From Candidatus Kaiserbacteria bacterium RIFOXYD1_FULL_42_15 (GTDB lineage Bacteria; Patescibacteriota; Minisyncoccia; Phycocordibacterales; UBA918): 42,512 nt of DNA. Location: positions 1-42,512 of the forward strand of contig MFMT01000023.1 in NCBI GenBank assembly GCA_001783565.1, read 5' to 3'. Position numbers and translations under genes: made by a program. This document shows, in pieces, positions 38,494 through 40,487 of this stretch (within the stretch, counting starts at the first letter, position 1; the number at the start of each line of letters is the position of its first letter). The notes below the pieces were generated by a model. The model did no database searches. It had not been told where the DNA came from and saw nothing but the letters and a program-made list of their open reading frames with translations.

Positions 38494-38739
38494 GCTCGCA
38501 AAAACGACGTTAACGAAAACGTGGATTGCCACGTTGCGACTCGCAAAGACGACGGTGGGTATGAGATGTTTATTGCGTCGTCTTCGCGAGGAGGGAGCTC
38601 GCAAGCGAGTGACGTGGCGATCCATGGTGGTTTGACGGTGTGGATTGCTTCGTTGCGACTCGCAAAGACGGCGTTGACGAACGACGTGGCAATCCATAAT
38701 GTACGAAAACGTGGATTGCCTAATAACCTCACGAAGACG
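38494..38739. repeat. cluster D of the GTGGATTGC-N-CTCGCAAAGACG family
   Basis: Units are 38521-38551 (+), 38579-38625 (-), 38640-38670 (+) and 38711-38739 (+). Half units lie at 38494-38505 and 38689-38697. Confidence 0.85.
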
Positions 38740-38780
38740 TATTTGATGCGGTCATTAAAAAAATGAGGTACAATATAAAA

Positions 38781-39106
38781 ATGCCACTGAAGCAGCCGAC
38801 ACTGCTGAGGCGAGAGAAGAAAAGTGAGCAAATAAGCGTAGCGATTATTGCGAACTTTGTTCCCGATTTGTCCCTTCTTAAGGCAAATTGCTGGAACGAC
38901 CAGTAACAAAATTCAATACGTTGTCTATTTTCACCTTAGTAGAACTCTCCGGGAGCGCCCGACATCGCGCTAAAAAAGATGCTGTTGGTTAAATAAACTG
39001 TAACCAACAAGCAAGTAGGGTGGTACCGCGCAGTAATCGCAAGATTGCAATCGCCCCTACAAATGTATTATTAGCTTAATATATTTGTAGGGGCGATTTT
39101 GTTTCT
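38781..39106 (+). promoter_or_regulatory. T-box riboswitch leader with intrinsic terminator, controlling aspS
   Basis: The T-box core AGTAGGGTGGTACCGCG lies at 39014-39030. The antiterminator helix GTAGGG/CCCTAC carries a UGGUACC bulge. The Stem III hairpin is TGTTGGTTA..TAACCAACA (about 38983-39009). The terminator is AATCGCCCCTACAAAT..ATTTGTAGGGGCGATT plus TTTGTTT (39049-39106). A candidate Stem I lies at 38836-38971 with GAC-A at 38961-38964. TACAAT sits at 38769-38774. Confidence 0.85.
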
Positions 39107-39137
39107 ACAAAACAATTATTATAAAGTAAATAGAAAT

Positions 39138-40487
39138 ATGACTAGGACATTAATTAGAGAGTTAAAAGAGAATATTGAAAAAGAGATAACCATTAAAGGT
39201 TGGGTGGATGTGGCCAGACTACAGGGCAAAATGGCTTTCTTTGATTTTCGTGATAGAAGTGGAAAAATTCAGGGAGTGGTTTTTGGTAAGCCAGAAGTGC
39301 TGAAAGTGGCCGAAACACTACGACAGGAGTGGGTAGTAGAAGTAAGTGGTGTGGTGCATTCTCGTCCAGAGAAAATGGTAAATACAACTGTTGAAAATGG
39401 CGATATTGAGCTAGAAATTACTAAAATCACTGTCTTGGCACAGGCAGAACCGTTACCGTTTGACATGTCGTTAGAAGGTTATAATTTGGATTTAGCAACC
39501 GAATTGGATCATAGAGCATTGACATTGCGCCACCCAAAACTACAAGCCATATTCAAAGTACAAAGTGTCATAATTGACTCTTTCCGTGAATTTATGAAGA
39601 AAAATGATTTCTTCGAATTTCAGGCGCCATCTATTACTCCAGCAACAGCTGAGGGTGGGGCAGAGGTTTTCCAAGTGAATTACTTTGATAAGAAAGCATA
39701 TCTGACACAATCACCTCAACTTTACAAGCAAATTGTCATGACGGCTTTTGAGCGAGTTTTTTCTGTTAATAAGGTCTTCAGAGCCGAACCAAGTGCTACA
39801 ACACGCCACATTACAGAAATTGTTTCTCTCGACGCAGAAATGGGCTTTATTGATTCCTGGTTGGATGTGCGTGACATGTCCGAAAATACAGTGCGATATA
39901 TTCTTAATGAAGTGGCCGAAAAATGCTCCCCTGAGTTCAAACTCCTTAACACTACTCTACCTACGATTATAGACAAAACTCCAACTTATTCGTTGACTGA
40001 AGCACAAGAACTAATCTTTCAAAAGTCCGGTCGCGATGTGCGTGGAGAAAAGGATTTAAACCCAGAAGATGAACGTACCCTCTGTGACATTATTAAAAAA
40101 GAGACCGATTCGGACTTTGTTTATGTTTATGGATATCCAACGCGTCAAAAACCATTTTACGTTTTTCCAAATCCGGAGAAACCTGAGTTCAACGAAGGAG
40201 TTGATTTGCTTTGTCGAGGAATTGAGTGGCTCTCTGGCGGTCGGCGCATTAACAACTACGCCCAATTATGTGAACATGTAAAGACCTGGGAAATGGATCC
40301 AAACTCCATTACTATGTTCCTGGAAGCATTCAAATATGGCGTACCGCCAGAAGGTGGTTTTGCTTTCGGTGCCGAACGAATGACAATGCAAATTCTTGGT
40401 TTAAAAAATATCCGTGAAGCTACAATGTTTCCTCGCGATATGAATAGAATTGATATGTTGTTGTCTGGTGCAGAAAAAGAAGTTTAA
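39138..40487 (+). CDS. aspS: aspartate--tRNA ligase, archaeal/eukaryotic type (possibly non-discriminating)
   Basis: I prefer the ATG at 39138, because the TTG at 39099 lies inside the terminator stem. About 449 aa. Motifs are TEGGAEVF, YLTQSPQLYKQ and FRAEPSATTRHITE, with class II motif 3 GFAFGAERM. SPQLYKQ argues for AspRS rather than AsnRS. Confidence 0.9.
   Translation: MTRTLIRELKENIEKEITIKGWVDVARLQGKMAFFDFRDRSGKIQGVVFGKPEVLKVAETLRQEWVVEVSGVVHSRPEKMVNTTVENGDIELEITKITVLAQAEPLPFDMSLEGYNLDLATELDHRALTLRHPKLQAIFKVQSVIIDSFREFMKKNDFFEFQAPSITPATAEGGAEVFQVNYFDKKAYLTQSPQLYKQIVMTAFERVFSVNKVFRAEPSATTRHITEIVSLDAEMGFIDSWLDVRDMSENTVRYILNEVAEKCSPEFKLLNTTLPTIIDKTPTYSLTEAQELIFQKSGRDVRGEKDLNPEDERTLCDIIKKETDSDFVYVYGYPTRQKPFYVFPNPEKPEFNEGVDLLCRGIEWLSGGRRINNYAQLCEHVKTWEMDPNSITMFLEAFKYGVPPEGGFAFGAERMTMQILGLKNIREATMFPRDMNRIDMLLSGAEKEV

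What the first reader, a model, noticed from the sequence alone, without database searches (positions are those of the whole stretch)
38781..39106. Canonical T-box riboswitch controlling an archaeal-type AspRS in a CPR-like genome
The 13-nt T-box core GGGTGGTACCGCG is exact (39018-39030). It sits in the expected antiterminator context: helix GTAGGG/CCCTAC and a 7-nt bulge UGGUACC. It competes with a long terminator (39049-39106) followed by TTTTGTTT, and a Stem III hairpin lies just upstream. A candidate Stem I spans 38836-38971. Its base helix AGC-GUA-GCGA pairs with UCGC-GCU, with a 3-nt bulge at the K-turn position but Watson-Crick pairs where G.A pairs are usual. Its internal loop presents GAC followed by a purine (38961-38964), which would be an Asp specifier. 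T-boxes are best known from Firmicutes and a few other phyla. Here one regulates an archaeal or eukaryotic-type, probably non-discriminating AspRS, with an unusually long Stem I. The neighbouring aaRS genes leuS, alaS and trpS show no such leader. The UGGU bulge would pair with discriminator A73, or with G73 by wobble.
Basis: partly seen in the sequence, partly recalled or inferred. Interest (0 to 1): 0.6.

Follow-up and report, generated by a model that had tools for sequence, protein, structure and literature searches.

The report
Short-armed aspartate T-box riboswitch before aspS
The leader of the aspartyl-tRNA synthetase gene of this ultra-small (CPR/Patescibacteria) bacterium looks like a real tRNA-sensing T-box switch, but it shows the Asp codon in the end loop of a tiny hairpin rather than in the long tRNA-docking arm that transcription-terminating T-boxes are thought to need.

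Summary
The exact T-box core is at 39018-39030, with a UGGUACC bulge, an antiterminator, Stem III, and a 22-bp terminator followed by UUUUGUUU. The gene downstream is a non-discriminating AspRS.

That GAC lies in the Stem IIA/B pseudoknot and is not conserved. The 5' end of the proposed stem lies in a Stem II insert that only a few relatives share.

Comparison of 33 non-redundant aspS leaders puts the real Stem I at the 5' end (38783-38811). It is a K-turn followed by a 5-bp stem whose terminal loop, CCGACA, shows GAC. The stem covaries. After it come a Stem II with an S-turn, a pseudoknot, Stem III and the discriminator.

The decoding half therefore resembles the translational ileS T-boxes of Actinobacteria, but the output is an intrinsic terminator. 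Papers I read pair such short Stem I arms with translational control.

Rfam RF00230 scores only 23 bits against a cut-off of 93. The UGGU bulge meets the G73 of the genome's tRNA-Asp as a G-U wobble; 30 of 33 relatives have UGGC.

Related leaders show AAC before aspS, ACC before thrS and AUC before ileS. This scan's earlier, unpublished notes report the same architecture in other CPR genomes, including an Asp case. No function was tested experimentally.

The parts
38769..38774 (+). Candidate -10 box TACAAT. It implies a transcript start near 38781, 1-3 nt before the K-turn. This is inferred only.
   Evidence: Read from the sequence. Relatives have TATAAT-like boxes 5-8 nt before the equivalent ACC/GCC stem. 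The promoter scan reported no + strand site. The nearest TTGATG lies 20 nt upstream, which is a poor spacing.
38783..38811 (+). Ultrashort Stem I with a K-turn. C-stem GCC/GGC is 38783-85/38809-11, the 3-nt bulge ACU is 38786-88, the tandem G.A pairs are 38789-90/38807-08, the 5-bp stem is 38791-95/38802-06, and the terminal loop CCGACA is 38796-38801.
   Evidence: It is the MFE fold of 38781-38813. 26 of 33 non-redundant aspS leaders have a K-turn-flanked hairpin with GAC in the loop, against 0.04 of 33 in shuffles and 0 of 17 thrS leaders. Covariation on 30 sequences: 84.6% of cells paired against 27-48% when the partner is slid, 26 cells changed on both sides, and 0 of 500 shuffles as high.
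38798..38801 (+). Specifier GAC (Asp codon) followed by the conserved purine A38801. It is complementary to anticodon GUC of the genome's tRNA-Asp.
   Evidence: A and C of the triplet are invariant and G is at least 90% conserved in alignment A1. The exception, L109, reads AAC. tRNA-Asp(GUC) is at C9:9904-9978.
38812..38949 (+). Stem II. The base helix GAGAG/CUCUC is 38812-16/38945-49. The S-turn strands are AAGAA 38817-21 and AGUAGAA 38938-44. The upper helix is 38822-27/38931-37.
   Evidence: The base helix is 97% paired across 27 leaders, and all 5 pairs show changes on both sides. The AAGAA and AGUAGAA strands are nearly invariant. The upper helix is read from the sequence.
38828..38930 (+). 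Lineage-specific distal insert in Stem II, about 100 nt, holding several sub-hairpins. cmscan aligned part of it as Stem I.
   Evidence: Only L007, L011 and L017 share it. Its GAA-NNN triplets read CUU, CUU, CUC and UUU, so they covary as a helix and do not behave as a codon. Other full-type relatives have 10-110 nt at this position.
38950..38971 (+). Stem IIA/B-type pseudoknot. CGGG 38950-53 pairs with CCCG 38958-61, and AGCG 38954-57 pairs with CGCU 38968-71.
   Evidence: The first stem varies CGGG/CCCG, CGU/ACG, CGG/CCG; pair 39-47 has 11 changes on both sides. The second stem varies AGCG/CGCU, UGC/GCA, GGC/GCC, ACGC/GCGU, read.
38977..39014 (+). Stem III (38981-39012, with A39009 bulged) and its flanking purines AGAUG (38977-81) and AA (39013-14).
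   Evidence: Fold of -10.6 kcal/mol, z -3.4. [quoted passage not shown] Relatives keep ...GAG-stem-GAAGU.
39015..39060 (+). Antiterminator (T-box discriminator). A1 is 39015-20/39055-60, the bulge UGGUACC is 39021-27, and A2 is 39028-30/39052-54. A2 carries a GCAA-capped extension at 39033-38/39043-48.
   Evidence: A1 and A2 covary in relatives: AGGG/CCCU, AAGG/CCUU, GAGG/CCUC, AUGG/CCAU for A1 and GCG/CGC, ACG/CGU for A2.
39049..39106 (+). Intrinsic terminator. The 22-bp hairpin is 39049-39098 and the UUUUGUUU tract is 39099-39106. It takes up the antiterminator's 3' strand.
   Evidence: At least 21 of 33 related aspS leaders pass an automatic test for a terminator that sequesters the A1 3' strand and is followed by a U run.
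39138..40487 (+). aspS, an archaeal-type non-discriminating AspRS. The true start is ATG 39138. The TTG at 39099 in the ORF list lies inside the terminator's U tract.
   Evidence: NF003483 457.6 bits and TIGR00458 372.5 bits, both above their cut-offs. Homologues start MERTLI... at the equivalent ATG. The asnS family model found no gene other than this one, and gatB is present.

Best explanation
The stretch 38781-39106 is a tRNA-Asp-sensing T-box transcription attenuator for aspS.

The transcript probably starts just before a K-turn that sets up a 5-bp Stem I. The terminal loop of that stem (CCGACA) shows the codon GAC plus a purine, much like an anticodon loop in reverse. It would pair with anticodon GUC of tRNA-Asp.

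There is no distal Stem I platform for the tRNA elbow. I infer that the codon-anticodon helix is instead braced by the Stem II S-turn (AAGAA/AGUAGAA) and oriented by the IIA/B pseudoknot, as in the actinobacterial ileS T-boxes.

If the bound tRNA is uncharged, its 3' G73-C-C-A pairs with the bulge UGGU. In this genome the pair at G73 is a G-U wobble. [quoted passage not shown] If the tRNA is charged, the much more stable terminator (-33.6 against -16.9 kcal/mol) forms and transcription stops at 39099-39106.

Shown here: every sequence element, its conservation and covariation, and the match between specifier, bulge and tRNA. Inferred: tRNA binding, the S-turn contact, the start site, and the regulatory outcome.
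For: - The core, bulge, antiterminator, terminator and Stem III are all present.
- The leader is conserved before aspS in 18 of 30 loci of the genus sample (the window's own locus included) and in 14 of 80 wider loci.
- In one alignment (A1, 30 sequences; A2, 27) each of Stem I, the Stem II base and the first pseudoknot stem covaries.
- A K-turn hairpin with GAC in its loop occurs in 26 of 33 leaders, against 0.04 in shuffles.
- The bulge base tracks the tRNA. aspS leaders have UGGC in 30 cases and UGGU in 3, and tRNA-Asp has G73. All 17 thrS leaders have UGGA, and the one tRNA-Thr drawn has U73.
- The loop triplet tracks the gene. It is GAC or AAC before AspRS genes, ACC before thrS, and AUC before ileS.
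- A terminator overlapping the antiterminator is found in at least 21 of 33 leaders.
- The motif 5'-RRRxG-Stem III-AA-3' is present.
Against: - RF00230 scores 23 bits, far below the cut-off of 93.
- The discriminator pair is a G-U wobble in this genome, which should weaken antitermination.
- The MFE fold of the whole leader does not form Stem I.
- No clear -35/-10 pair was found.
- There are no transcript or binding data.
- Published work holds that terminator-type T-boxes need the elbow contact for fast tRNA capture (PMC7583486), so function without it is unproven.
Confidence: 0.8

Rival explanations
1. One reading: a canonical T-box with a very long Stem I (38836-38971) that shows GAC 38961-63 in an internal specifier loop.
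For: AGC-GUA-GCGA and UCGC-GCU can pair on paper, and GAC is followed by A.
Against: - The triplet is not conserved in relatives: GAU, GUU, GCU, GAA.
- Its partner strands belong to a covarying pseudoknot.
- The 5' strand lies in an insert that most relatives lack.
- All of these leaders carry the 5' hairpin with GAC instead.
Confidence: 0.03
2. The switch also or mainly senses tRNA-Asn, because the enzyme is non-discriminating. Anticodon GUU could pair with GAC through a G-U wobble at the first codon base, and UGGU might suit an Asn tRNA.
For: - No asnS gene was found and gatB is present.
- Sister leaders carry AAC in the same loop before AspRS genes. Of the seven seen, three (L109, L151, L163) have UGGU.
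- A T-box that senses tRNA-Asn and controls the transamidation operon is known in Clostridium acetobutylicum (Saad 2013, cited in PMC4052509).
Against: - GAC is a perfect match to tRNA-Asp.
- No tRNA-Asn gene was found in this 84%-complete assembly, so its discriminator base is unknown.
- The closest relatives (89-90% AspRS identity) have GAC with UGGC.
Confidence: 0.1
3. A decaying or constitutive leader: a T-box relic whose terminator merely lowers aspS expression and no longer responds to tRNA.
For: The score against the family model is very low, the discriminator pair is a wobble, Stem II carries a large insert, and some relatives have lost Stem II and the pseudoknot altogether.
Against: Every functional element is intact. 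Helices keep pairing through compensatory changes across genera, and the specifier and bulge stay matched to the tRNA.
Confidence: 0.06
4. Translational control, as in the actinobacterial ileS T-boxes: the 3' hairpin hides the ribosome-binding site instead of terminating transcription.
For: The decoding half has the same architecture as the translational class.
Against: The hairpin ends 40 nt before the ATG and is followed directly by a U tract. No Shine-Dalgarno sequence lies within it.
Confidence: 0.03

Closest known systems
Translational ileS T-boxes of Actinobacteria with short or 'ultrashort' Stem I (Sherwood, Grundy & Henkin 2015; Mycobacterium and Nocardia structures), as summarised in PMC7583486, PMC11297988 and PMC12990946
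   Same: The base of Stem I carries a K-turn. Stem I is very short and has no elbow-binding platform. Stem II has an S-turn purine string. A IIA/B pseudoknot, Stem III and a UGGN-ACC bulge are all present.
   Different: The output here is an intrinsic terminator with a U tract, not sequestration of the ribosome-binding site. The specificity is Asp and the gene is aspS, not Ile and ileS. The host is Patescibacteria. Stem II carries an insert of about 100 nt. The original 2015 paper is not held in the library, so my description of the ultrashort class rests on the reviews and on memory.
Classical transcriptional T-box leaders (Rfam RF00230; for example Bacillus subtilis tyrS and glyQS)
   Same: The T-box core sequence is the same, as are the competing antiterminator and terminator, the pairing of the bulge with the tRNA NCCA end, a codon plus purine as specifier, the K-turn, and an aaRS gene as target.
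   Different: There is no long Stem I, no distal interdigitated T-loop platform, and no internal specifier loop with its own S-turn. The score is 23 bits against the cut-off of 93.
Two-codon T-box of Clostridium acetobutylicum that controls the transamidation operon (Saad et al. 2013, cited in PMC4052509)
   Same: A T-box governs the indirect Asn-tRNA pathway. Sister leaders of this family show AAC before AspRS genes.
   Different: That one is a long-Stem-I T-box with overlapping Asn and Glu codons. The window's leader shows a single GAC.

Membership tests
T-box leader (broad sense) | Conserved T-box sequence that forms the 5' strand and 7-nt bulge (UGGN ACC) of an antiterminator | tested here: met
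   AGGGUGGUACCGCG lies at 39017-30, and the antiterminator is the MFE fold of 39012-62. Its helices covary in relatives.
T-box leader (broad sense) | A mutually exclusive terminator (or sequestrator) that uses the 3' strand of the antiterminator | tested here: met
   Terminator 39049-98 plus a U tract contains 39052-60. At least 21 of 33 relatives show the same arrangement.
T-box leader (broad sense) | Specifier codon, followed by a purine, that matches the amino acid of the regulated gene | tested here: met
   GAC followed by A lies at 38798-801 before aspS. Relatives show GAC or AAC before aspS, ACC before thrS and AUC before ileS.
T-box leader (broad sense) | The variable bulge base is complementary to the tRNA discriminator base | tested here: inconclusive
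   Across the family it is met: 30 of 33 leaders have UGGC and the tRNA has G73. In the window the base is U, which gives a G-U wobble with G73.
T-box leader (broad sense) | Antitermination that depends on uncharged tRNA | not testable with these tools
   This needs in vitro transcription or reporter assays.
Rfam RF00230 / class I transcriptional T-box | Score at or above the gathering cut-off (93 bits) | tested here: not met
   The score is 23 bits. None of the 151 genomes sampled from the order reaches the cut-off; the highest is 60.8 bits.
Rfam RF00230 / class I transcriptional T-box | Long Stem I with an internal specifier loop and a distal platform that stacks on the tRNA elbow | tested here: not met
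   Stem I is a 5-bp hairpin with the specifier in its 6-nt terminal loop. cmscan deleted 51 model positions of Stem I and placed the rest on a Stem II insert.
Class II (actinobacterial ileS-type) T-box | Short or ultrashort Stem I, combined with a Stem II S-turn and a IIA/B pseudoknot as the decoding module | tested here: met
   The K-turn hairpin, the AAGAA/AGUAGAA strands between covarying helices, and the pseudoknot at 38950-71 are all present. That these contact the tRNA as in the ileS structures is inferred.
Class II (actinobacterial ileS-type) T-box | Translational output: the alternative fold sequesters the ribosome-binding site | tested here: not met
   The alternative fold is a terminator hairpin plus a U tract that ends 31 nt before the ATG. 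It contains no SD sequence.

The most novel reading that the evidence does not exclude
This leader would be one member of a large, unpublished class of transcription-terminating T-boxes in Patescibacteria. They read the tRNA anticodon with an anticodon-loop-like terminal hairpin loop and have no tRNA-elbow contact.

Within one genus the class runs from full versions (K-turn, S-turn and pseudoknot, as here) to leaders that are little more than Stem I, a linker and the discriminator. It has spread to aspS (GAC or AAC), thrS and ileS.

If these leaders work, they overturn the view that co-transcriptional T-boxes need the long Stem I platform for fast tRNA capture. They would also give the smallest natural tRNA-sensing switches known.
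Probability: 0.5. Interest if true: 0.75.

Novelty: new variant of a known kind. Interest (0 to 1): 0.6.

Why it matters
Reviews of T-box mechanism (PMC7583486, PMC11297988) separate two types. Terminator-type switches need a long Stem I and a tRNA-elbow contact to catch tRNA within the transcription time window. Translational actinobacterial switches can do without it. This leader joins the short decoding module to a terminator, so it tests that kinetic argument directly.

It also shows why Rfam-based annotation misses most T-boxes in this CPR order: none of the 151 sampled genomes reaches the cut-off. These bacteria have very few known regulators, so a widespread tRNA-sensing switch on aspS, thrS and ileS matters for how they cope with dependence on a host for amino acids.

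The compact versions could serve as small parts for engineered tRNA sensors.

Tried and rejected
- The Rfam gathering-threshold scan of the window found nothing.
- I rejected cmscan's placement of Stem I at 38815-38880. That stretch is a Stem II insert shared by only four leaders, and its 'specifier' triplets vary (CUU, CUC, UUU).
- MFE folding of the whole leader or of the decoding half did not recover Stem I. I relied on comparative data instead.
- My first strict K-turn search missed leaders with a mismatch next to the G.A pairs, so I relaxed it.
- My first terminator script used a faulty pattern. The corrected one still undercounts.
- Sherwood et al. 2015 (PMC4313828) is not held in the library.
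- Literature searches for T-box together with Patescibacteria, CPR or Parcubacteria listed no paper that holds both terms among those shown.
- The ileS leader of this genome (C40:10521-10965) has no RF00230 hit and no canonical GGUGGNACC. I left it open.

Full report
**Observation**

The 13-nt core GGGTGGTACCGCG is exact at 39018-39030. It occurs once in the window (0.04 expected at up to one mismatch) and once in the 757-kb genome.

Folded alone, 39012-39062 gives the textbook antiterminator (-16.9 kcal/mol, z -2.8):
- helix A1 is 39015-20/39055-60;
- the 7-nt bulge UGGUACC is 39021-27;
- helix A2 is 39028-30/39052-54, with a GCAA-capped extension.

The stretch 39049-39098 forms a 22-bp hairpin (-33.6 kcal/mol, z -9.4) followed by UUUUGUUU. 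This hairpin contains the 3' strand of the antiterminator, so the two folds exclude each other.

Stem III is 38981-39012 (z -3.4). [quoted passage not shown]

Rfam finds nothing at gathering thresholds. With relaxed filters RF00230 matches 38815-39061 at 23 bits against a cut-off of 93 (E 0.007 on 851 nt). Nearly all of that score comes from the 3' half.

**The gene and the organism**

39138-40487 encodes aspartate--tRNA(Asn) ligase (NF003483, 457.6 bits, cut-off 353). The asnS family model finds no gene other than this one, and gatB is present. The assembly is 84% complete, so absence of asnS is not proven.

tRNA-Asp(GUC) has discriminator G73. No tRNA-Asn gene was found.

Public relatives of the AspRS carry Paceibacteria, Nomurabacteria, Kaiserbacteria and Adlerbacteria labels. 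The genome is therefore a Patescibacteria (CPR) member.

I took the regions upstream of aspS in 29 genomes of the genus sample and in 80 public contigs. 18 of 30 loci (the window's own included) and 14 of 80 loci carry AGGGTGG[C/T]ACC[G/A]CG.

It lies in a compact pseudoknot:
- CGGG 38950-53 pairs with CCCG 38958-61;
- AGCG 38954-57 pairs with CGCU 38968-71.

Both stems change in a compensating way in relatives (for the first; for the second).

Only three relatives share that insert.

**The real Stem I**

All of these leaders begin with one conserved element. In the window it runs as follows:
- C-stem GCC (38783-85);
- bulge ACU;
- GA;
- stem AGCAG;
- loop CCGACA (38796-38801);
- stem CUGCU;
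- GA;
- C-stem GGC (38809-11).

This is a standard K-turn: a C-stem, a 3-nt bulge and tandem G.A pairs. It is followed by a 5-bp stem whose terminal loop shows GAC and then a purine. It is the MFE fold of 38781-38813.

A pairing-based search finds such a hairpin with GAC in the loop in 26 of 33 non-redundant aspS leaders. Shuffled leaders give 0.04 of 33, and thrS leaders give 0 of 17.

On a 30-sequence alignment:
- the A and C of GAC are invariant and the G is at least 90% conserved;
- 84.6% of cells in the two helices are paired, against 27-48% when the partner is slid;
- 26 cells are changed on both sides;
- no shuffle of 500 reaches that value.

**The rest of the decoding half**

After Stem I comes Stem II. 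Its base helix, GAGAG/CUCUC (38812-16/38945-49), is 97% paired across 27 leaders, and all five pairs show changes on both sides.

Next to it lie the nearly invariant strands AAGAA and AGUAGAA. Together they look like the S-turn and purine string of ileS T-boxes.

The distal part of Stem II varies from about 10 nt to more than 100 nt. The window has a long version (38828-38930). cmscan mistook that version for Stem I.

**Independent checks of the specifier reading**

- The bulge base tracks the tRNA. aspS leaders have UGGC in 30 cases and UGGU in 3, and tRNA-Asp has G73. All 17 thrS leaders have UGGA, and the one tRNA-Thr drawn has U73.
- The loop triplet tracks the gene. thrS leaders have a 7-nt loop CUACCAA closed by richly covarying stems.
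- Some AspRS genes in the order are preceded by AAC in the same loop.
- ileS leaders in the order and in other classes of the phylum show AUC together with UGGU.

**Mechanism**

The best reading is a tRNA-Asp-dependent transcription attenuator.
1. The loop GAC pairs with anticodon GUC.
2. The S-turn and the pseudoknot brace that helix.
3. The uncharged G73-CCA end pairs with UGGU and stabilises the antiterminator.
4. Otherwise the terminator forms and transcription stops.

The elements, their conservation and their covariation are shown. tRNA binding and the regulatory outcome are inferred.

In the window the discriminator pair is a G-U wobble. The nearest relatives have C at that position, so this looks like a recent, tolerated or tuning change.

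The terminator is not a one-off. At least 21 of 33 leaders pass an automatic test.

**Comparison with what is known**

Reviews state that transcriptional T-boxes generally need a long Stem I with its elbow-binding platform. They also state that short or ultrashort Stem I arms belong to translational, mostly actinobacterial ileS T-boxes (PMC7583486; PMC11297988; PMC12990946). [quoted passage not shown]

The leader here has the class II decoding module and a class I output. It fails RF00230 membership on score and on Stem I. It fails class II membership on output.

T-boxes as such are not new in CPR:
- In the phylum sample, 51 of 151 genomes have RF00230 hits, five of them above the cut-off.
- In the window's order, 50 of 151 genomes have hits, all below the cut-off.

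My literature searches listed no paper that describes T-boxes in Patescibacteria.

Earlier notes of this scan, which are AI notes and unpublished, report the same architecture in other CPR genomes before proS, cysS, thrS, glyS, ileS and one aspS. I saw those notes after reaching my own reading, and they agree with it.

**Limits**

- There are no transcript, binding or probing data.
- The promoter is weak on paper.
- Thermodynamic folding of the full leader does not by itself give Stem I.
- The description of the actinobacterial ultrashort class rests on reviews, because the primary paper was not available.

Noticed in passing
G000 C25:732-948 (-) and C42:558-738 (-); loci L001, L002: The genome has two thrS paralogues, each with its own sub-threshold T-box (about 31 bits) and a UGGA bulge. 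The Thr codon ACC sits in a 7-nt terminal loop, CUACCAA. The hairpin lies inside a junction closed by CAGA...UCUG. That closing helix covaries in relatives (UAGA/UCUA, CAGG/CCUG). This architecture differs from the aspS leaders.
   Followed up: partly
L010, L020, L025, L027, L049, L050, L059, L129 (aspS leaders of relatives): In these relatives the aspS leader has no Stem II and no pseudoknot. The K-turn Stem I with GAC is joined by a linker of only about 15-30 nt to Stem III and the antiterminator. In L129, Stem III is missing too. These would be exceptionally small T-boxes if they work.
   Followed up: partly
L109, L151, L162, L163, L168, L171, L172: Sister leaders show the Asn codon AAC instead of GAC in the same terminal loop. 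The four whose downstream protein I scanned (L109, L163, L168, plus the GAC leader L150 for comparison) precede AspRS genes of archaeal or bacterial type, not AsnRS. L109, L151 and L163 have UGGU. This suggests that sensing has switched between tRNA-Asp and tRNA-Asn for a non-discriminating enzyme.
   Followed up: partly
window 38828-38930: The Stem II insert contains its own loop-E-like motif (CGUA ... GAA) capped by a small hairpin, plus two further hairpins. It is shared with L007, L011 and L017. Its role is unknown.
   Followed up: partly
window 38494-38739: The spacer between trpS and the leader is filled with repeated units (CGTGGCGATCCA / CGTGGCAATCCA and their complements). Another note of this scan treats them as a REP-like cluster.
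   Followed up: no
L146, L153, L156, L157, L160, L164, L169, L174 (same order): A second, longer T-box type occurs in the order before genes that are not aaRS genes. One of them looks like tryptophan synthase beta from its N-terminal sequence. These leaders share a conserved ...UUCUGCG.AGUGGAAAUCCGG..CCUCCGU... region, so both long-arm and short-arm T-boxes occur in this lineage.
   Followed up: no
G000 C40:10521-10965: The ileS leader of this genome has AUC followed by A beside a GGAGG/CCUCC helix, GGUGGAAUC in place of a canonical T-box, and a terminator just before the start codon. RF00230 gives no hit there at E<=10.
   Followed up: partly
window 39099-39137: The longest ORF call starts at TTG 39099, inside the terminator's U tract. 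Homologues show that the real aspS start is ATG 39138.
   Followed up: yes
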